This document shows positions 13,931 through 58,450 of a stretch of 64,000 nucleotides of DNA, piece after piece. The DNA is from an uncultured Planctomycetota bacterium (GTDB lineage: Bacteria > Planctomycetota > Planctomycetia > Isosphaerales > Isosphaeraceae), in contig CAWGMQ010000011.1 in NCBI GenBank assembly GCA_963823665.1, positions 992,001-1,056,000 on the forward strand. The letters are read 5' to 3'. A program made the position numbers and the translations under genes. Under the pieces are notes generated by a model. The model did not search any database and was not told where the DNA came from. It was given only the letters and a program-made list of their open reading frames with translations. Positions within the stretch are counted from its first letter, which is position 1. Each line of letters opens with the position of its first letter.

Positions 13931-14023
13931 CCTTTTCGTGTCTTTTCGTGTTTTTCGTGGTTAAACACTCTGCCCTGCCTCGAGCCCCTTTGTCATCGGC
14001 GTCGATCGGCGTCATCTGCGGAC
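13931..14023 (-). repeat. Two triple-unit motifs: CCACGAAAAACACGAAAAGACACGAAA and GTCCGCAGATGACGCCGATCGACGCCGAT
   Basis: Read directly; the second matches the motif flanking the GxxExxY gene. Confidence 0.75.
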
Positions 14024-47718: not shown

Positions 47719-49407
47719 CTATTTCTGGGAGACGAAAACTTGAAATTGACAGAATCGGTGGGCTCACCCTGCATTGCTCTGGCCACGATATCGGGATCGA
47801 ACGCATGCCGCGCTGGCAGCCGCAGCCGGGAGCACGACTCCGCCTGCGCGCCAGGTGAGCAATTTGATCAAGGATGCCGAGCCGGCGACATGGCCGCCGG
47901 GAGTGAGCGCGAGCCAGTCGATGCGGGCGAGCGGATCTTCATTCGCTGTCGCATCGAGGCCCGGCGGCTGGAGCAACGTGGCGGAGAGCTGGCCGGAGGG
48001 CAAATTCCAGAGGCGGACAAGGCCGTCGCAGCCGCCGCCGGCTGCCAGGTTGCCCGAGTCCGAGATGGCCGCTGCGTATTGCCAGTCGAGGGCCGGCATT
48101 TGTTTTGCGGGCTCGCCGGTCAAGCCGTTCCACAGACGGAGAGTGTTGTCGCTACCGCACGAGATGAGCCAGCGGCCGTCGCCGCTGAACGCGAGCTGAT
48201 GAACCGAGCCGGAATGACCATTGCGGCGCGACTGCGACTTGTCGCCGTCATAGGTCCACCAACGGAGCTGCGGCTCGCCGCCGGAGGAAACGAATCGTTT
48301 GCCGTCCGGATGAGCCGCGACGGCGAGGACCTCATCGTTGTGCTCGCTGTAAGTGCGCTCTTCCTTGGCTGTGCGCGTGTTGATGCGTTTGATCGTGCGA
48401 TCCTTGCCACAGGAAAGCAGCGAGCGGCCGTCGGGCGTGTAGGCAGAGCGAGTACACAAAATCGGAATGACCACGAAAGATCCCGTCGGCGCTTGCCGAG
48501 TCCGAGGTTCCAGAGGCGAACGGTCTGGTCGAAGGAAGCCGAGGCAAGCTGTGCGCCGTCGGGCCGGATGGCCACCGCAAAGACGGCGTCCGTATGTCCG
48601 GGGAAATCGTGGATCAAGCGTGCCGTCGGGCACGGAATAAACTCGCACAACTCCCGAGCGCGCCGGCAGGCCCGCGCCCAGGGCCAGGCGGCGGCCATCG
48701 CGGCTGAATACGAGGGAATGAACCGGGCCCGGGATCTCGGTAATCGCCCCTGCGGGCCCGCCGTCGTGAAGGTCCCACAAAACGACCTGGCCGTAGGTCC
48801 CGACTGCAAGCAGCCGCGAGTCACCGCGAAAAGCGAGTGCCGTCACGGGCGGTAGCGGGCCGGCCGCGAGGCTCAGCGTGAGAGGGCCACCGTTGGGTGC
48901 GACGGCACTTCCCGGTGGGACTTTGGCATCGCACGGCAAATTGACGTCTAGCGACCGGATGAAGTGCACCCGGCGCGGCGGCGAAACGGCGGCCGTTCCG
49001 GCCCGTGCCAGCGCTGTTCCTGCGGGCGCACCGGCGTCGATCCAGCGACTGATGAGGTCGATCTGCGCCGAGGGGAGAGGCTCTTCCCCGCGCGGCATGC
49101 GGCGATCTTCGTCAGGATCGGACAGTCGGCGCATGAGCTCGCTCTGGCGTGCCTTTCCCGGTGCGATCACCTTGTCACGCGGAGAACCCGCGAGAACGCC
49201 TATGAGCGAATCGAGTGCCAGGCCGCCGGAGATATCGAGCGAGCCACGTTTCGAGGCCCGGTGACAGACCGTGCACCGCTTCACGAAAATGGGTTTAATG
49301 TCTTTCTCATATGTAGGCGCGGCAGAGTCGTCGGCCCGGCCTGCGGCAGCGCAGCACATGCAGCAAGATGAAACCAGCCAGATGAGGGGCCGTTTCCAAC
49401 CGTGCAC
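47719..49407 (-). CDS. Planctomycete cytochrome c domain + WD40 protein (several frameshifts; 3' end approximate)
   Basis: CTVCH heme motif, GLALDS, RMP, WIDAGA; WD40 repeats spread over three frames. Confidence 0.85.
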
Positions 49408-49437
49408 GGGCTTGCTCCGCGTCAGGAACAGAGGAGG

Positions 49438-51943
49438 TCAATGGTTGAACAGGAACTCCTTGGAGTTCAGCAAGGCCCAGAAGAGATCCTGAGCGGCGAC
49501 GGCACGACTGGGGCCTTCGGCGAAGACTGACAATGCTCTGGAGGCTTCGCCTTCACTCGGCGGGCGGTTGAACGTCAGCAGGTAGAGCCGGCGCACGAGT
49601 GCTGAGTCGTCGAGCTTGGGGTCTTCGAGCAACCGCGACAGCCGGCCTCCCTTCTGGAGGAGCTTTCGGTTGAGCAAGTCGCCGTTCATCAGGTGAAGCG
49701 CCTGGCTCAAATTCGGGTCGCCCGAGCGCTCGCATTCGCACGCGATCGCTCGGAGGGGACGACCGAACGTATCCAGGAAGAACGATGCATAGTTGGTATC
49801 GGGCAGAGAGATCGCCCGGGTGCCGGAGGGAAGCTGGGGAAACTTTTCAACCGTGCCAGACGCCGCATCGATCGCGTCGAGCAACTGTTCGGCCGTGAGG
49901 CGCTTGATCGTGTAGTGAGTGAAGAATGAGGTGTCCATCCGATTTTCGGACGTCGGCATTGCACTCAGTTGATAGACCCGGCTGGTGAGGATCTGGCGGA
50001 GCAGCGCCTTCAGATCGAATCCCGAGGCGATGAAGCGGTCAGCCAGGGCGTCGAGCAGCTCGGGGTTTGAGGGCGGGTTAGTCTCGCGGAGATCGTCAAT
50101 CGGGTTGACCAGCCCTTTGCCGAGCAGGTAGCCCCAGTAGCGGTTGACGACGCTTCGGGCGAGCCACCTGAGGGTTTTCGGTGGTGAGCCATCTTGCGAG
50201 GGCGCGGCGGCGATCGACGGGGTCGTCGATGGGTTTGTCGCCCAGCGGCCGCGGTTCCATCTTCTTGCCGGTTCGCGGCTGATAAACTTCACCTTGCTGG
50301 GAGACGAAGATCACTTGATCGCCGCCGAAGAGTCCAAATTCGTCGCTTCGCTTGGTCCGTACGCGAGCGAAGTAAGCAGCCAGGGAGTAGTAGTCGTCCT
50401 GCCCGTATGATTCGAACGGGTGATGATGGCAACGCGCACACTGAAGGCGAACGCCCATAAAGACCTGGGCTGTCGTCTCGGCGAGGTCGTCGGGACTCGT
50501 GGCGACGCGAAAGTAGTTGGCCGGACCGTTGCTGAAGATCGAACCCTGGGCAGTCACGAGCGCTTCAGCCATTCGGTCGAAGTGCATGTTGGACCGAAAC
50601 GCCTCGCGAAGCCAGAGGTTGAACGCGAGCATACCCTGGGCGCCCAGCTTCTCGGAGTTGACGCGCAGCACGTCGCCCCACTTGAGCGTCCAGTAATCAA
50701 CGTATTCGGGGCGGTCGAGAATCTGATCCACCAGTTTGGGGCGCTTGTCCGGATCGGGATCCGCGATGAAATCCTCGATCTCGTCCGGCGACGGAGTGGT
50801 TCCGATTGTGTCGAGCATCGCGCGGCGGAGGAACTCCGCGTCGGTGCAAGGCGGCGAAGGGGCCAGCCCGAGCTCGCGCCACTTGGCGCGCCGCCTTCTG
50901 ATCGACGACGTTTTGCGACGGGAATTCAAACGGTTTTTCGCGCCGAAGGGCACGGTGAGCCGCGTCATGGCCGCGTGGCCCAGGTATCGCACCATGATGC
51001 TGGCCTCACCACGGCCGACGGTCTTGGCGATTCCGCCGGACCTGACCGTGGCGACACCTTCATTGAGCGTATCAAACCGCGCGGCATCCGTGACGTCTCG
51101 CTCGGTGCCGTCGCTCAGCCTGGCGATCACGGCGAGTCGCTGCTCCTGTCCCGGCTCGATCACCCGGGCATGGGGATAGACATTCACGCCGACGACCCGT
51201 GGGTCTGCCTCGCTCGGGCCCGGCGCGCCCTGCTTGAGCCAGAGCGTGATCAGCCGATACGCCTCTGAGCCCGGTTCGAGCCGCTTTCCGCCGCCGTGGG
51301 CCACGGCCAGCGTGGGCTTGAGCAGAATCAGGCTCTCTTCCGGTGCGAATGGCGTGATCCGACGCTGTTCTGCACTCTTGACGATCAAGGTGTAATCCGA
51401 TTCGGGCTCGAAACCCAGTAGCGAAAGCTTGAACCCACCCTTCCCGTGTTGAGACCCGTGGCAAGCTCCTTGATTGCAGCCGAGCCTGGTCAGAACCGGC
51501 ATGATCTCGTTGCGAAAGCTCACCTGCCGCGGCGCCCTTGCCTTGGTCACCTCGACCGGAACGTGCGCCAGGACTTCGCCCACTCGAACGGCCACTTCTG
51601 TCGTGCCGTCGGCCGCGGGTCGAAGCACTCCGTTTTCGATTCTGACGCAGTCGGGTCCCAGCGACTCGAGCCGGGCGTCGGCCGACCGGTCGTTGGTCTT
51701 GCCTTCGGGAGTGATCTCCAGCACCACCAGGCGCTGTCTCGCCTCCGGGCCGCTCAACCTGACCTTCGGCGGAAACACCTGGAGCCGAGCCGAACGGTCT
51801 TTTGGGTCGCCCGCAGCCCGGGCACCTCCGGACCACACCAGGAGCAACACGACGGCGAAACCGTAAACTGCCGGTCGAAGCGCACTGGCCGATGGACGGT
51901 TGGAACCATGAGGACGCTCGACATCGAATTCGCTCGCGGGCAT
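49438..51943 (-). CDS. DUF1549/DUF1553 protein with Ig-like domains (frameshifts ~50900 and ~50160)
   Basis: GCNQGACHG, FLRRAMLD, QCARCHHHP, VNRYWG, NPELLD, ACECER, terminal LNSKEFLFNH. Confidence 0.9.
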
Positions 51944-52191
51944 GGCGTGGCCCCTTCGTACCAAGGGACTTTACCCGAACCGAGACCTCACCGCGGATCG
52001 TGGCAGAGCATGTCTCCAGACCAGGCGATGAATCCCTCGCGGGCGGCGGGAATGGCTAAGTCGGTGTGGCAACGCGGTTTGAGCGCAGTCAGAATGTTTG
52101 ACGATCGCTAATCTATAGTTTAACAATGCTCTGTATGGCTGCCAAAAGCAAGACAGAACTGCGGCTGCCGCGGCAGATTCATGACGCCGTG

Positions 52192-53414
52192 TCAACGAGC
52201 GGAGACGCGCGTCGCGAGATCAGGGTTGACGATGCGCTTGGATTCTTCGATGTCTTCGAGCGCATCGGCCCATTCGTCGGTGCTGTCGCCGGGTGGGTCC
52301 AGAAGAATCCAGCCCCGGCGCGAAGACGGCGTCTCGCGCGAAGCCTCGCCTGCGGCGACCGCCAGGGCGATGGTGCGGCTGAGGGCGAGTGCTCCGCGGC
52401 TATTCAAGTGCGTCGCGTCGACGAAGCATTCAGCGGGGTAGCCGGCCCGGCGGGCGTCGAGCACCGTGAAAGCTCCGGGGTGCGCGCCACAATCGACTTC
52501 AGAAGCCGATCGTGGAGTTCATCGGCTCCGCTCTGATCGCGGCGCGACTGCAACGTGGGCGAGAGCGGACACAGCACCCAGTAGATCGGGATACGGCGGC
52601 CAGCAGCGAGCCTCAGGATTCGCTCGATGGCCTCGGCATTGGCCGGATCCACGTGAAAAATATCGGTGTAGAACGGCCGCTCGGCTTCGGCACTCAGCTC
52701 GCCGTTGTAAGCCGGTACGGCCGAGGCGACGTTCGCCCCATGGTTCACTGTCCAGTTCCGCCAGAGGACAGGATTGATCGAGCGAATGCGATCGGTCTCG
52801 CCCCGGACCGCGGCCATGACGGCGGACTGGATCTCCAGCCGAGCTCGTAACGACGGGAGGAGACGGCCGACGAGTGTTGAGGCAACGAATGGAGCGTTTC
52901 TGGTGATCTGGAGCATTTCCGGGGCATCGCGCAGGCCGAGCACCTCTTGCCAGGGCCGGGCATTGAATTCCGGGCCACCCAGGAGCACGGCGGGCTTGGC
53001 GTTGATGATCAGCGCGGCAGGCCGCGCACCGGAATCGAGTACTTGGCGAAGGAGGCAATACGTCAGAAGTGTGGACCCCCGCGCCGCTGAAAGGTTAGCC
53101 GCCTTCAAGCCGGACGTACGCTCGATGACTGAAGGAATCAGACCGTGCTTGACGAGGCTGTCGCCGAGGCAGAGGAGCTGGCTGTCGCGAGCCTCAGATT
53201 CAGCGGCCTTCGCGCTGTAACGCCAGCTCAGGCTGACCGGGTCGGTCAAATCAATCCAGTGACGGAATAGGAAGCCTTCGATCCCGATGACGAGGGCCAA
53301 CATTCCGGCTACCCCGCACGGGATCGAGCGCTGATTTCGGAAAGACAAATGAGCTCTCCCAGGATCGCTCCCGAATCTGGGGCGTATCTTGGGCGAATTC
53401 GGAGATTCTGGCAA
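52192..53414 (-). CDS. SGNH-like/DUF1574-like membrane-anchored protein (frameshift ~52470)
   Basis: TM segment, LCLGDSLVKHG, C-terminal FVDATHLNSRGA in the shifted frame. Confidence 0.7.
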
Positions 53415-53437
53415 GAGATTTCGGGCTCACGAACGCG

Positions 53438-53593
53438 CCAGAACGCGCTGGGCCGGCAATCCGCCGGCAGGTGGTAGCGCAGTCCGTCGTCGATATTCAG
53501 GTAGAGGTCGAAGCCGGTGCGAGGCAAGCGCTTGAGCTCGCGCTGGCAATAAACGCCGGCAGTTTCCGGCCGCAGGGTGGTGTCAAAGACGTC
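53438..53593 (-). pseudogene. Fragment resembling the N-terminus of a planctomycete glycosyltransferase
   Basis: VFDTTLRPETAGVYC...GFDLYLNIDDGLRYHLP...RPSAFW; no start and no catalytic domain; family recalled from memory. Confidence 0.5.
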
Positions 53594-53628
53594 GGTCCGC
53601 AAGTGGACGGTCAGGAATTCAGCTCATC

Positions 53629-53879
53629 TTCGGGTGAAGGCGAAGTTGGAGAATTCGGAGTTTGGTCCGCAGATGACGCAGAGGAACGCAGATAAATCAG
53701 ATGGAAGACAATTTCGGGCGAAGGCGAAGTTGCAGAATTCGGAGTTTGGTCCGCAGATGACGCAGAGGAACGCAGATAAATCAGATGGAAGACAATTTCG
53801 GGCGAAGGCGAAGTTGCAGAATTCGGAGTTTGGTCCGCAGATGACGCAGAGGAACGCAGATAAATCAGATGGAAGACAA
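53629..53879 (+). repeat. Three tandem 84-bp repeats, each containing GGTCCGCAGATGACGCAGAGGAACGCAGAT
   Basis: Motif starts at 53664, 53748 and 53832; copies 2 and 3 identical, copy 1 differs at two positions. Confidence 0.95.
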
Positions 53880-54080
53880 ACGGAACGGGCCCGCGCTGGA
53901 ACCGCTGATGGGTGCGGGCGGCCGTCCTTTATCGGGTCTCTTTTGGTGGGTGAAGCGCCGATGGTGTCTGCGGCCGTGCCGCGAGATAGACTGACGCATC
54001 GTGGTCGATCACAAACGTCTTCGTGTCGATCTTGTGTCGTAGCAGGGTCGACGGACTTATCGGAGTGGAAGCGTTTTCTC

Positions 54081-54524
54081 CATGATGAAGAAACGCGCGA
54101 TCCTCGGACTTATGCGATCATCGGGGCTGCGATCGAGGTGCATCGGAGGCTTGGTTGCGGGTTTTCGGAGCCTGTCTACCAGGATGCTCTCGAAGTCGAA
54201 TTTCTGCATCGGGGGATACCTTTCCAGCGTGAGCTGGAGCTGAGGATCGCGTATCGAGAGCAGATTCTACGAAGCTTCTACAAGGCCGATTTCGTGTGTT
54301 ACGGATCGATCGTCGTGGAGCTCAAGTCGCTCGCGGGATTGGATTCAGCGCATATCGCGCAGGTCATCAACTACTTGAAAGCCACGGGCCACACTGCGGG
54401 ACTGCTGCTCAACTTCGGCACATCACGTCTGGAATGCCGCCGGTTGATCTTTTCGGGACCGACGTCGGAGGTTCTGGACGAGACCGTCTATTCAAGGCCC
54501 GCAGACGACTTGAGCGAATGCTGA
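54081..54524 (+). CDS. GxxExxY protein (PD-(D/E)XK nuclease-like); start codon uncertain
   Basis: TYAIIGAAIEVHRRLGCGFSEPVYQDAL...ADFVC...IVVELK...AQVINYLKAT...GLLLNFG. Confidence 0.92.
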   Translation, partial: HDEETRDPRTYAIIGAAIEVHRRLGCGFSEPVYQDALEVEFLHRGIPFQRELELRIAYREQILRSFYKADFVCYGSIVVELKSLAGLDSAHIAQVINYLKATGHTAGLLLNFGTSRLECRRLIFSGPTSEVLDETVYSRPADDLSEC

Positions 54525-54555
54525 CGCGGCCGTGTCGCTCGAAAGTCAAATCCCC

Positions 54556-54658
54556 GGTCCGCAGATGACTGGCGATCGGCTCAGATCAAAAAACGAGTCA
54601 CTCGCAAGCGGAAGCGTCGCTTCGATTTCATCTGCGTCCATCTGTGACATCTGCGGAC
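54556..54658. repeat. Inverted pair of the GTCCGCAGATG motif downstream of GxxExxY
   Basis: GGTCCGCAGATGAC at 54556 and ATCTGCGTCCATCTGTGACATCTGCGGAC at 54630-54658. Confidence 0.85.
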
Positions 54659-54746
54659 AGTTCCGCCCTCCCCTGCTGCGCCAGCCGTCCGGTCATCGCA
54701 CGTCGACTGGGTCTACCTGTGGACGTCCGACTCGCTCCGAACGTTC

Positions 54747-55128
54747 TTACTCAGTGCCCTGACGCGGACCGGGCCAGTGCGGCAGCGCATCCTTCAGCGC
54801 CCCGATCGCCAGCGCCGGGCAATGCAGCTTATCCGGCGGCACGCCCTCAAGCGCCTCAATCAGACCCTCGACCGTCAGTTCCCGGCACTCCGCGATCGAT
54901 TTACCCTTGATCATCTCCGTCAGCATCGACCCACTCGCAATGGTCGGCCCGCAACCGACGGTGTGATACTTCGCCGCCACGATCCGCTCTTCTTCGACCT
55001 TCAGATAGAGGATCATGAACGCCCCTCGACCTGGCGCCGGCGTGGCCGGTCAGGTCGGGGTTCTCGATCGCCCCACCGTTTCGAGGCGACATGACGTGCT
55101 CGGTCAGCGTTTCGGAGTACTTCCCCAT
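54747..55128 (-). CDS. IscU/NifU N-terminal-like scaffold protein (frameshift ~55030)
   Basis: YSETLTEHVMSPRNGG, GCGPTIASGS, GVPPDKLHCPALAIGAL. Confidence 0.85.
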
Positions 55129-55251
55129 GCTTGGAACTTACGCAATGCGACTCTTGAATCCACGCCTCGCCGAACTAACTTGAAAATAGGTCTGACCACC
55201 GGGAGGGGTAGAGATTGGCGAATCGACGGCGCTCGCTCCGCGCGGGGACGT

Positions 55252-55270
55252 GCCTTCGCGGAGCGAAGGC
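55252..55270. repeat. REP-like hairpin GCCTTCGC-GGA-GCGAAGGC
   Basis: Perfect 8-bp stem; shares TTCGCGGAG with the 45.4-kb units. Confidence 0.6.
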
Positions 55271-56485
55271 CGACCATTGTTCTGGGCCGTCGCCTCAGGC
55301 AGTGATTTGATCGGGTGGGCTGCCTCGTCGCGGCGCGGGGGTGTCGGTTGACGCCCGCCGGCGGGTTGGATGAATGGCGCCGACGAACCGAGAGGCTCAC
55401 GGACTGGACGGACACCCTGGAGGCGGGGGTCGCGTTGGGTGTTTTTTCCGTTTTTTGGCCGCGGCGCGCGAACCTGAGGTTCAAGTAAGCCGCGTGCGCG
55501 ACGGAGCGCTTGCCTCAACTCGGTATAACCCCGAGCTGGTCTACAGTCCTCTCGTCTCTTCAAAACCGGTCGGCGAGTGCTTCGAAGCCCGATTGCATGC
55601 AGAGTGGTTTTCAGGCGGTCTTTCTTCCCAGTTTGGAATGGAGCCACTCATGATCACTCTGCTGCGCAAACGTATGCACCACGAGACCGGCAAGCCACTT
55701 CGCCGCGCCGAAGTTCGCTGGTGCTGCGCGCCCAGGTCGCTTATGGAGCGCCCCGATCCACTTTCCCAACCAGAATCGCCATCGATTCCTCGCCGAGCAC
55801 GCCGCTCCTGCCCCACCCAGCACGCCCCGGCGCCATCGCGACCCCCTCGGTTCCCGCCGTTGACCCTCGATCACCTATTCTCGTGTCGAACCGTTTCCCT
55901 AACATCAGGTTGCGGGGCGCGCTCAACGGGCTTCTTGAACCGGGATTTGAGATTCGGCTTCGCGAACTCAAATCCTCATTGGGATTCGATCGAGCTGATC
56001 GTTGCATCCGTTGCAACCCGGATAAAAATCCCAGGTTTTCTGGTCGACGAAATGGCCGAATCGCGAAAGTGGGCCCATAATATACATAGCTCTTTCTCGA
56101 TCGCCGACACCGGAGTCGGCGCGAGGGGCGAGCCACCCATGTCTCTGGAACCGGGAATGACTGCTCCGTTTGCTCGAGCGCGTGCTCGAGGAACTCAGGC
56201 CGGTGTGATCCTCGCTTTACCGCGGCAACGAAGCGGCTGGTCTGCGCTTGCAATGGGGGAACAGTTCCCGACGAAAAGCTGTCAAGTTTGTGCTGTGGCG
56301 ATCGCGGGACAGGTTTGGACCAGGGTGAGGGCGGGTTTTCACCCGGTGGGCCGGGGCATCGTTGTGCGGGCTTGGCGGCGTTATCCTCTTTGTTTCTCAG
56401 CATTTCCGTGCTGCTCAGGGGCATTTCGGCCTGCCATCGCGCGGGGCTCCCAACGGCAATAAGAATGGGACTGTTTTTGGAGTCA

Positions 56486-58450
56486 GGAGTTCCATTCAAC
56501 GGGTCGAGCCGCGTACGGCCCCCTCACGGCCCGTGAACTTGGGTCGAGAAAGGTCTGGCTTGGTTTACCTCATTATGTCGACGTTGCCATATGGCGACGC
56601 GCGTCAGTGGCCGTTGGCACGTTGGTGCTCTTAGCCCGACATTTAGCATGGTCCGAGAGGCTTCGACCTTGTCATTGGTGACTTGCCATGCCGGGTTTTT
56701 CCGGCGTGGTATTGATCCCGTTGGGGAGACTATTTCGTTCCCGATACCCCTCTTGGCTCGCGGCGCCTTGTCGTTTCACCACACCTACCCGCGAAGCGGA
56801 GAGATCCCATGCTTGTCCCCCACGAAGAGCCGAAGAAGCCACGCAAGCCCAAGAAGCCGAGCAAACCCAAGGAGCCGACCAACAAGCCGCGGGTCAGGTC
56901 GCTTCCCGTCCCCGTCCCCGCCTCCTCTGCACCGCTCAGTGTCGTGAATCCAGACGCAGCCGGAGTTGATGTTCATTCCGACATGCATATGGTCTGCGTT
57001 CCCGCTGACCGCGACGTTGACCCAGTCCGCCAGTTCGGTGCCAACACCGCCGATCTTCAGGAGATCGCTGTGTGGTTAAAGAAATGCGGCGTAAAAACCG
57101 TCGCGTTGGAATCCACCGGCATTTACTGGATTCCTCTGTTCGAGCTCCTCGAATCCCAGGGCTTCGAGGTTATGCTAGTCGAACCGGGACAGCTTTCGCG
57201 TTGTGGCGCGCGCCCCAAGACGGACGTACTCGACGCGCAGTGGATCCAGCGGTTGCACTCCTACGGCCTCTTACGTGGGTCGTTCCGACCTCCGGACTCC
57301 GTGTTGGCCCTGCGCGCCTACTCCCGGCAACGGCAGATGCTGGTGCGTTACGCCGCTGCTCATGTCCAACACATGCAGAAGGCCTTGGAGCAGATGAACG
57401 TCAAACTGACGGAAGTCATGAGCGACATCACGGGACTGACGGGCATTTCGATCATCGACGCCATTCTGCGAGGCCAACGCAATCCCAAGAAGCTGGCCAA
57501 ACTGCGGCATGGGCGCTGTAATCACAGCGAGGAGCAGATTGCCCTAGCGTTGGAAGGGACATGGCGGCCCGAACATCTCTTCGAGCTGCGGCAGGCGCGC
57601 GAGCTGTACCAGTTCCATCATGGGCAGATCACCGAGTGTGACCAGCAGATTGAAGCCGAACTGGCCAAATTCGAAAACCGGGCGGGAGAGAAGACACAAA
57701 CTGGTAAGCCACGCACGCGTGGTCGCAAAAGCAACGATGCCCGATTCGAGGCGACGGGCCCGTTGTTCCAGGCATTGGGTGTAGACCTGACAAAAATCGA
57801 GGGAATCGGCGTGGGAACGGCCCTGATCATTCTGGCCGAAATCGGTGTGGACGTCAGTCGGTTTCCCACGGAGAAGCACTTCGCAAGTTGGCTGCGTCTT
57901 TGTCCTTCCCAGGATGAGAGCAATAAGACCAAAAGACGTCGCGGTCATCGCCAAGGGAAGAACCGAGTCGCTATCGCCCTACGGATGGCCGCGCAGTCAG
58001 CAGGCAAGACGATGACACCCTTGGGCATGTACTACCGACGGATCAAAAGTCGGATCGGTGGACTTGGAGCCGTCAAGGCGACTGCACACAAGCTGGCCTG
58101 TTTGGTCTACAGGATGCTCAAGTACGGCGAAGAGTATGTGACCCAGTCGATGGAGGAGTACGAGGCCAAGATCAAAGCCAATCTGGTGAGAGCGCTCCAG
58201 CGGAAGGCGGCGGCGATGGGCTTCCAGCTCAGTCCGATAGCAACGCTATAGAGGAATCGATCGAGGCCGTCGCCATCGCGCTACAGGCCTGTCACAATGC
58301 TCAACGCCGCGAAGCCCACTTCTCGCATATTCGTTGTTATGGGGGTCTGGGGGAAATCTGCGCGTCGTTCGCTACAAAATGCAGGAACAAACCCCAAATA
58401 ATCGAGTCATGTTGTTGATTGCTTGGGGAGTTCATGGGGAGTTCCATTCA
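56486..58450 (+). mobile_element. IS110-family insertion sequence (boundaries inferred)
   Basis: Transposase CDS with non-coding ends, bounded by direct repeat GGAGTTCCATTCA at 56486 and 58438. Confidence 0.8.
56809..58251 (+). CDS. IS110-family DEDD recombinase/transposase
   Basis: AGVDVH, LESTGIYW, KTDVLDA, IEGIG, FASWLRLCP..ES, ATAHKLA. Confidence 0.95.
   Translation: MLVPHEEPKKPRKPKKPSKPKEPTNKPRVRSLPVPVPASSAPLSVVNPDAAGVDVHSDMHMVCVPADRDVDPVRQFGANTADLQEIAVWLKKCGVKTVALESTGIYWIPLFELLESQGFEVMLVEPGQLSRCGARPKTDVLDAQWIQRLHSYGLLRGSFRPPDSVLALRAYSRQRQMLVRYAAAHVQHMQKALEQMNVKLTEVMSDITGLTGISIIDAILRGQRNPKKLAKLRHGRCNHSEEQIALALEGTWRPEHLFELRQARELYQFHHGQITECDQQIEAELAKFENRAGEKTQTGKPRTRGRKSNDARFEATGPLFQALGVDLTKIEGIGVGTALIILAEIGVDVSRFPTEKHFASWLRLCPSQDESNKTKRRRGHRQGKNRVAIALRMAAQSAGKTMTPLGMYYRRIKSRIGGLGAVKATAHKLACLVYRMLKYGEEYVTQSMEEYEAKIKANLVRALQRKAAAMGFQLSPIATL

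What the first reader, a model, noticed from the sequence alone, without database searches (positions are those of the whole stretch)
53594..54658. GxxExxY nuclease gene embedded in an oriented repeat cassette: candidate REPtron-like or RNA-associated mobile system
Seen: the motif GGTCCGCAGATGACGCAGAGGAACGCAGAT occurs three times upstream in an 84-bp tandem array. A variant occurs forward at 54556 and another inverted at 54630-54658, so the gene is bracketed by inverted copies and followed by a ~100-nt hairpin. A partial GGTCCGCA at 53594 sits where a truncated glycosyltransferase fragment begins. Known: GxxExxY proteins are PD-(D/E)XK-fold proteins of unknown function. Inference: the protein may recognise or propagate this motif, as RAYT does for REPs, or the repeats may form a structured RNA.
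Basis: partly seen in the sequence, partly recalled or inferred. Interest (0 to 1): 0.8.

Follow-up and report, generated by a model that had tools for sequence, protein, structure and literature searches.

The report
Repeat-armed nuclease cassette, decayed copy
A small nuclease gene of unknown function sits between mirror-image DNA arms built from a thrice-repeated 7-base word, and across many bacteria particular bases of that word change together with particular amino acids of the protein, so the protein likely reads its own arms and may act as an undescribed selfish DNA element, although this copy is likely broken.

Summary
The repeats are real. The gene (TIGR04256/PF13366, PD-(D/E)XK fold) lies between inverted arms of three CGCAGAT words spaced 9-10 bp apart. 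141 of 192 homologous loci have such paired arms (0 of 384 shuffles), as do 55 of 79 held-out loci. Helix-1 residues track arm bases: in held-out loci Thr9 went with G5 in 29 of 29 and Tyr10 with T/A7 in 14 of 14. A strict tree-based test was underpowered (p 0.25). This copy is decayed. Its ancestral start codon is one base out of frame, it lies antisense to its host operon, its left arm is locally triplicated (the 84-bp array; a tandem junction is confirmed in independent contigs), and a ~2.4-kb neighbour gene is missing, with the switch point inside the right arm. Paralogous operons show gene-less versions, and another genus has the intact cassette. It is not a REPtron (no HUH transposase). 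I found no support for a structured RNA, no target duplication and no exact empty site, so mobility is inferred. The scan noted this family before in at least eight other genomes; my paper searches found no description.

The parts
53432..53590 (-). Remnant of the N-terminal part of a large glycosyltransferase gene (full paralog: PF13524 + methyltransferase + PF00535 + TPR); its start was removed by a 63-bp deletion between AAGACG repeats
   Evidence: tblastn; alignment; Pfam of paralog; 63-bp skip also in a contig of run X1
53594..53601 (+). Degenerate arm-like stub GGTCCGCA; ancestral flank shared with paralogs L041, L042, L046
53629..53880 (+). 84-bp x3 tandem array: local duplication of the left arm with about 39 bp outer and 19 bp inner flank
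   Evidence: single unit in paralogs; junction bridged by X1 contig
53665..53693 (+). Left arm, copy 1 (terminal GTC + three heptamers, spacing 9 and 10)
53749..53777 (+). Left arm, copy 2
53833..53861 (+). Left arm, copy 3 (innermost); holds an in-frame ATG at 53841
53862..54081 (+). Unusually long leader (arm-to-residue-9 distance about 270 bp against a family median of 64.5 bp); first 124 bp shared with paralog L042; in-frame ATG at 53961
54082..54084 (+). Ancestral start codon, one base out of frame with the core
   Evidence: alignment to the G008 orthologue; N-termini of closest homologues; letters matched without gaps by X1 contig 54041-54317
54084..54524 (+). GxxExxY nuclease coding core (146 aa; G26-x-x-E29-x-x-Y32, D69, E79-L-K81, Q93-x-x-x-Y97; helix-1 residues D6, T9, Y10)
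54504..54638 (+). Inner right segment shared with the gene-less paralog L041 (93% over 157 bp), including the last codons of the ORF
54556..54586 (+). Degenerate forward arm (one good heptamer, two decayed)
54626..54638 (.). 13-nt switch point: L041-type sequence to the left (59 of 60 identical), L043-type (NifU-side) arm and flank to the right; the PF00534 glycosyltransferase gene of the paralogs (~2.4 kb) is missing
54630..54658 (-). Right (inverted) arm CGCAGAT-GT-CACAGAT-GGA-CGCAGAT with terminal GTC
54747..55128 (-). NifU_N-like first gene of the host operon; its frameshift near 55033 is probably an assembly error
   Evidence: X1 contig has 2 more bases there

Best explanation
The locus is a likely inactive copy of a ~470-bp cassette in which a GxxExxY PD-(D/E)XK nuclease gene lies between two inverted arms of three 7-base words; the protein likely binds its own arms as double-stranded DNA through its first helix and likely cuts at or beside them, and repair of such cuts would shorten, duplicate, swap and spread the cassette. 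Shown: the gene-arm association across phyla, the residue-base covariation, gene-less derivatives, co-orientation with host genes, and the history of this copy (tandem arm duplication, out-of-frame start, a neighbour gene missing with the switch point inside an arm). Inferred: direct binding (about 0.8); one protomer per word on one face of the helix, from the 8-11 bp spacing (about 0.5); cutting at the arms and arm-centred recombination as the route of spread (about 0.45); expression mainly by read-through from host operons, which this antisense copy would lack.
For: Arms: 66 of 79 homologous loci have an inverted repeat beating all 40 shuffles, against 4 of 76 neighbouring windows; 141 of 192 have paired heptamer triplets scoring >=50, against 0 of 384 shuffles and 0 of 111 neighbouring windows; held-out 55 of 79, against 0 of 237 shuffles. 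The word follows the protein tree (57 changes; shuffled minimum 86, mean 95). Code, training set of 136: T9 with G5 in 91 of 93, S/A9 with A5 in 24 of 40; Y/F10 with T/A7 in 43 of 43 against 5 of 91 otherwise; nearest disjoint pairs 16:0 (of 23), 3:0 (of 3) and, for D6-C4, 7:0 (of 8), with T9 top of 206 tests and D6 top of 24. Held-out, predictions noted first: T9-G5 29 of 29 (non-T: 14 A, 6 G), Y10-T/A7 14 of 14, C4 only with D6 in 3 of 3. This copy fits (T9, Y10, CGCAGAT). Catalytic D69 and E79 are invariant and E29, K81, Q93, Y97 are >=90% conserved in 73 sequences (motif roles recalled); model pLDDT 90.5 matches PD-(D/E)XK folds. One genome holds three protein types, each with its own word. 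At one operon junction, paralogs carry the intact cassette (L155, another genus, 68.7% aa), gene-less versions (L041, L046), a different GxxExxY type or its remnant (L043-L045, L157, L162) or unrelated repeats (L158-L161). The switch point here lies in an arm. A gene-less doublet sits in frame in a glycosyltransferase linker in 3 paralogs and is absent from the 10 other linkers printed. G006 has 25 strict triplets, six as short inverted pairs.
Against: No exact empty site and no target duplication of 3 bp or more in 122 cassettes. The tree-based independent-pairs test is not significant (T9-G5 3.4 same, 0.1 opposite, p 0.25; Y/F10 p 0.5); my nearest-pair and Fisher counts do not remove kinship. 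Base 7 also follows clade: 12 of 34 held-out proteins without Y/F10 still have T/A7, and one F10 has G7. 14 of the 15 strict triplets in this genome lie in paralogs of one glycosyltransferase operon, so many copies multiplied with their host. The cassette has stayed at the same junction across two genera, which suggests slow movement. A 13-nt shared stretch could give the local deletion by ordinary recombination. No match in 50,697 phage records; 8 of 72,556 plasmid records, all typed non-mobilizable. Fold Z-scores are middling (9.3 and below) and show no function. No binding or cutting was tested.
Confidence: 0.5

Rival explanations
1. The arms are the protein's own operators. It binds them to control its expression (or to loop the gene), has a cellular job such as defence or repair, and moves only as a passenger of other elements or by homologous recombination; gene-less doublets are decay products.
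For: Explains the covariation, co-orientation with host genes (upstream gene on the same strand in 110 of 122 called flanks), the lack of target duplications, retention at one junction across genera and the tie of arm copies to operon paralogs.
Against: An operator does not need an inverted copy downstream of the stop codon in 127 of 141 loci. It does not explain in-frame gene-less doublets inside a coding linker, many gene-less pairs in G006, or up to 15 family matches per genome.
Confidence: 0.27
2. The arms work as RNA: they pair in the host transcript to form a long stem that is cut out or processed, like an intervening sequence, so the insertion is tolerated in operons.
For: 53820-54670 folds with the arms paired (z -4.63; 0 of 20 shuffles). 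Cassettes are co-oriented with host genes. Spacer bases agree more within a cassette (52%) than between cassettes of one class (41%).
Against: No strand bias of wobble pairs: 41 vs 40 in words and 40 vs 44 in spacers relative to the gene, 69 vs 64 relative to the called host strand. About half of spacer positions are mismatched. No Rfam match at E<=1. Any inverted repeat folds well. This copy and L155 are antisense to the operon.
Confidence: 0.13
3. The association is passive: an unrelated repeat family moved by another enzyme collects around GxxExxY genes, and the covariation only reflects shared descent.
For: The strict tree test is not significant. The junctions also collect unrelated repeats.
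Against: The top-ranking columns are helix-1 residues, not clade markers. Y10 goes with T7 inside the otherwise-G clade (3 of 3 in training; 3 of 3 held-out). Three word types in one genome each stay with their own protein type.
Confidence: 0.08
4. The 84-bp array and the bracketing are assembly artefacts.
For: The assembly has probable indel errors (NifU frameshift; a 42-bp gap not seen in an X1 contig). X1 has no cover at 54549-54690.
Against: An X1 contig bridges a tandem junction. Copies 2 and 3 share derived substitutions. The flanks are 93% and 84% identical to the paralogs, not 100%. 18 of 122 homologous cassettes also have duplicated arms.
Confidence: 0.02

Closest known systems
REPtrons / REPINs with RAYT (TnpA-REP), and TIRtrons (PMC3116915, 12 passages; PMC3733652, 12 passages; PMC8266576, abstract and outline)
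   Same: One small enzyme gene flanked by its cognate repeats; gene-less inverted doublets elsewhere; repeat type co-evolving with enzyme type; several types per genome.
   Different: The enzyme is PD-(D/E)XK, not HUH/Y1. Arms are direct triplets of a 7-mer at helical-turn spacing, not individual palindromes with a GTAG tag. No sign of selection on a folded single strand. Tens of copies per genome, not hundreds.
PD-(D/E)XK nucleases: BpuSI type IIG nuclease domain (3s1s, Z 9.3, rmsd 3.0, 110 aligned), Uma2/DUF820-like (3ijm, Z 8.3), Cas4 SSO0001 (4ic1, Z 7.6), lambda exonuclease
   Same: Core fold and E...D...ExK plus QxxxY motif (motif roles recalled).
   Different: 12-18% identity for these top matches; no methyltransferase, helicase or Fe-S part; an extra N-terminal helix that co-varies with flanking DNA; no solved relative by sequence. 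PMC3424549 (passages) lists PF13366 as function 'Unknown' with multiple transfers.
Homing endonucleases and Tn7 TnsA (recalled; TnsA named in a passage of PMC3424549)
   Same: A PD-(D/E)XK enzyme can serve a mobile element.
   Different: No intron or intein, no DDE partner; the sites that co-vary with the protein are in the filled element, not the empty allele.
MITEs / mobile insertion cassettes (recalled)
   Same: Short, inverted ends, gene-less derivatives.
   Different: No target duplication of 3 bp or more; the ends track the cargo protein rather than a separate transposase.
23S rRNA intervening sequences
   Same: An ORF inside a potential long stem.
   Different: Not in rRNA; no wobble-strand bias.

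Membership tests
GxxExxY protein (TIGR04256 / PF13366) | Score above curated cut-off; GxxExxY motif | tested here: met
   134.7 bits vs 35; 130.1 vs 22; G26-F-S-E29-P-V-Y32
PD-(D/E)XK nuclease superfamily | Core fold with E...D...ExK residues | tested here: met
PD-(D/E)XK nuclease superfamily | Metal-dependent nuclease activity | not testable with these tools
   needs an assay
REPtron (RAYT/REP) | HUH/Y1 tyrosine transposase gene | tested here: not met
   only TIGR04256/PF13366 match; PD-(D/E)XK fold
REPtron (RAYT/REP) | Palindromic REP units with a conserved GTAG-type tag | tested here: not met
   arms are direct heptamer triplets
REPtron (RAYT/REP) | Cognate repeats flank the enzyme gene and co-vary with it | tested here: met
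REPtron (RAYT/REP) | Gene-less inverted doublets elsewhere in the genome | tested here: met
   L041, L046, L002/L010/L012; G006; in this genome 14 of 15 strict triplets lie in operon paralogs
REPtron (RAYT/REP) | Enzyme cleaves cognate folded ssDNA | not testable with these tools
   needs an assay
IS / MITE with DDE transposase | Target-site duplication | tested here: not met
   no excess for k=3-8 in 121-122 cassettes; a 2-bp signal (24 vs 6.3) is not separable from arm symmetry
IS / MITE with DDE transposase | Precise empty site in a relative | tested here: inconclusive
   junctions too diverged or filled by other repeats
Structured RNA / intervening sequence | Strand-specific selection on base pairing | tested here: not met
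   wobble 41:40, 40:44, 69:64
Structured RNA / intervening sequence | Match to a known RNA family | tested here: not met
   0 Rfam matches at E<=1 in 52500-56000
Structured RNA / intervening sequence | Transcription and processing | not testable with these tools
   needs RNA data
Cas4 | Four-cysteine Fe-S cluster (recalled) | tested here: not met
   no conserved cysteine set among invariant or near-invariant columns

The most novel reading that the evidence does not exclude
GxxExxY cassettes are a class of minimal self-mobilising element: one ~130-aa PD-(D/E)XK enzyme that reads its own 7-mer triplet arms by a simple helix-1 code, cuts there, and moves or converts itself and gene-less doublets without target duplication. 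This would give a small, retunable, natural DNA-recognition code with thousands of variants.
Probability: 0.35. Interest if true: 0.9.

Novelty: categorically new. Interest (0 to 1): 0.68.

Why it matters
PF13366/TIGR04256 is very common (102 of 201 genomes of this phylum over the cut-off; 7,975 of 8,000 scored candidates) and is listed as function unknown. The arms give it a predicted substrate, and the residue-base pairs give direct experiments. If it cuts and spreads, it is a repeat-propagating system with an enzyme class not known for that role, and a source of operon rearrangement such as the gene loss seen here. The class and score refer to the family; this copy is a decayed example whose value is the paralog series (intact, gene-less, swapped, duplicated, deleted at an arm). 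The 'categorically new' call rests on failed membership tests and paper searches that miss most subscription journals; mobility itself is not shown.

Tried and rejected
Empty site: the geneX/GT junction in 12 paralogs or orthologues and the glycosyltransferase linker in 13 gave no exact junction. Target duplication: none of 3 bp or more. RNA reading: Rfam blank, no wobble bias; no RNA holder listed, which says nothing on expression. The 3' hairpin is weak. I first took S28 for decay; the closest homologues share it, so I dropped that. Tree-based independent pairs were underpowered; the exhaustive scan was unreadable and not used. PDB sequence search: one chance-level hit, E 0.21. Phage records: no match; viral contigs gave 8 loci. 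No sigma-70 promoter-like site in 53400-55300 (weak test). X1 contigs do not cover the 54626-54638 switch point or bridge the gene-less junction of L041, so both rest on the assembly. One X1 contig holds the 42-bp stretch that the window's glycosyltransferase remnant lacks, so that gap may be an error or another allele. The strand caller is crude and uses recalled amino-acid frequencies; it called only one flank for this locus and L155, both antisense, so '56 vs 0' undercounts antisense cases. Oligomeric state was not tested. The whole genome was searched by pattern and family, not scanned by script. Paper searches: family names: 4 works listed, none on repeats by title or seen passage; nothing on this system. 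Supplements were not read.

Full report
Observation. The 84-bp unit occurs three times at 53629-53880. Each unit holds an arm of three heptamers, CGCAGAT/CGCAGAG/CGCAGAT, spaced 9 and 10 bp. An inverted arm lies at 54630-54658 and a decayed forward arm at 54556-54586. The motif is above chance in the window and the genome (81 matches vs 16 for the reversed pattern; strict triplet 15 vs 0). The gene is a GxxExxY protein. A contig of run X1, which may be the source sample, bridges a tandem junction without differences. The 3' 'hairpin' is weak.

History of this copy. The locus is one of at least seven paralogous operons in the genome: NifU-like gene, PF00534 glycosyltransferase ('gene X'), large multi-domain glycosyltransferase, all on the minus strand here. 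In G008, another genus of the family, the intact cassette (arm, gene at 68.7% identity, inverted arm; 660 bp) sits at the same gene X / glycosyltransferase junction (L155). Paralog L041 has the same left flank, left arm and inner right segment but no gene; L046 is shorter still; L042 has one 84-bp unit and part of the leader. So the array is a local duplication, as in 18 of 122 homologous cassettes, and gene-less doublets most simply arise by internal deletion (inference). The window lacks gene X. Its sequence follows L041 up to a 13-nt stretch at the inner end of the right arm (59 of 60 bases) and follows the NifU-side arm of L043 after it. I infer recombination between two same-facing arms; X1 does not cover this point. 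The ancestral start codon at 54082 is one base out of frame with the core, and an X1 contig agrees with the window there. In-frame ATGs at 53841 and 53961 could give longer products. The copy is antisense to its operon, whereas the upstream neighbour is on the gene's strand in 110 of 122 called flanks (crude caller). I rate this copy as likely inactive (about 0.7).

The family. Of 93 loci given to, 79 were scored (1 without hit and 13 with short flanks or partial genes dropped): 66 had an inverted repeat across the gene beating 40 shuffles, against 4 of 76 neighbouring windows. Of 211 loci given to searches were scored: 141 had paired heptamer triplets, against 0 of 384 shuffles and 0 of 111 control windows. 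Sampling leans to relatives of the query, one other clade and this phylum. The median cassette is 472 bp; arms begin TT[AC][AT]C-CRC; left-right likeness fades beyond three bases outside the first word; there is no target duplication of 3 bp or more. This genome has 10 family matches (6 near-full) in three protein types with three words.

Protein-arm covariation. In 136 in-register cassettes (5 off-register dropped) the word follows the protein tree (57 changes vs shuffled minimum 86). T9 goes with G at base 5, Y/F10 with T/A at base 7, and C at base 4 occurs only with D6. These residues were chosen after seeing the data, so I fixed predictions and fetched 80 new loci: 79 scored, 55 with arms, 49 in register; T9-G5 29 of 29, Y10-T/A7 14 of 14, C4-D6 3 of 3. 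Limits: held-out loci come from the same phylum and partly the same genomes; base 7 also follows clade; the strict independent-pairs test gave p 0.25 and 0.5. Residues 6-10 lie outside the arm's coding overlap in compact cassettes, so overlap does not explain the signal.

Protein. The model (pLDDT 90.5) has an N-terminal helix (7-23) before the GxxExxY helix and a PD-(D/E)XK core. Best matches are BpuSI (Z 9.3), 3ijm (8.3) and Cas4 SSO0001 (7.6), middling and close together. The motif residues are conserved; their catalytic roles are recalled from the superfamily.

Mechanism. Arms are conserved as words, not as a paired strand: wobble-compatible differences show no strand bias and half the spacer bases mismatch. 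With 8-11 bp spacing and inverted symmetry, this favours binding of dsDNA by several protomers at each end. I commit to cutting at the arms with recombinational repair as the source of deletion, duplication, swapping and spread (0.5 overall). In favour are the switch point in an arm, the different cassettes at one junction, the in-frame doublet in a coding linker and dispersed pairs in G006. Against are the lack of an exact empty site, 14 of 15 strict triplets lying in operon paralogs, and long residence at one junction. The operator-only reading (0.27) is the main rival.

Known systems. It is built like a REPtron or TIRtron (PMC3116915 and PMC3733652, 12 passages each; PMC8266576, abstract and outline) but fails their defining enzyme and repeat tests. 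PMC3424549 (9 passages) lists PF13366 as unknown. bioRxiv 10.1101/2021.01.26.428298 (1 passage) mentions the name only; PMC12085832 and PMC9756366 were seen as listings only. Six searches found no description of the arms; the library lacks most subscription journals and I read no supplements. The scan's own notes report the same family in at least eight other genomes; they are leads, not support.

Verdict. Real feature; decayed local copy of a widespread gene-plus-arms system that I could not find in print, with a testable recognition code. Interest 0.68.

Noticed in passing
window 13934-14020 (- strand): Two orphan arms side by side, a CACGAAA triplet and a CGCAGAT/CGCCGAT triplet, with no GxxExxY gene.
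   Followed up: no
L011, L014, L016, L019, L021, L026, L027, L029, L030: Nine loci share another dispersed repeat with the same 9-bp word (ACGCAGATG x2-3) behind a conserved ~35-bp lead, with no inverted partner in the stretch printed.
   Followed up: no
L041-L048, L155-L165: A NifU_N-like / PF00534 / multi-domain glycosyltransferase operon occurs in at least seven copies in this genome and about ten in G001; its junctions collect many unrelated repeats.
   Followed up: partly
L316, L322, L328 (G000) and L323, L329, L333 (G001): The same interdomain linker of a glycosyltransferase carries an in-frame CGCAGAT doublet in G000 and a tandem ~51-bp unrelated repeat in G001.
   Followed up: partly
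L042:4970-8350: The paralogous cassette is cut off after its leader by an array of a different repeat, with a reverse-transcriptase gene (PF00078) about 2 kb further on.
   Followed up: no
L156:3900-4500 (G008): A second G008 copy of the cassette is interrupted in the gene by a tandemly duplicated ~270-bp sequence.
   Followed up: no
L022/L023 (G000:C8 ~1407400-1408500); L031 downstream: Tandem arrays of 216-305-bp units mixing CGCAGAT and CACGAAT arms; L031 is followed by tandem CACGAAT doublets.
   Followed up: no
L044:7637-8251: Nested remnants at the NifU junction: CACGGAA arm, 5' half of an ACAGGAG-type GxxExxY gene with its arms, then a CGCAGAT arm.
   Followed up: partly
window 55033; also ORFs 47764-51964: The NifU-like frameshift is absent from an X1 contig; nearby ORFs look split too, so the assembly probably has scattered indel errors.
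   Followed up: partly
window 56809-58251: IS110-family transposase gene (NF033542, 252 bits), 2 kb from the cassette; no link seen.
   Followed up: no
window 55221-55278: 29-bp imperfect palindrome upstream of the NifU-like gene, with related copies elsewhere in the genome.
   Followed up: no
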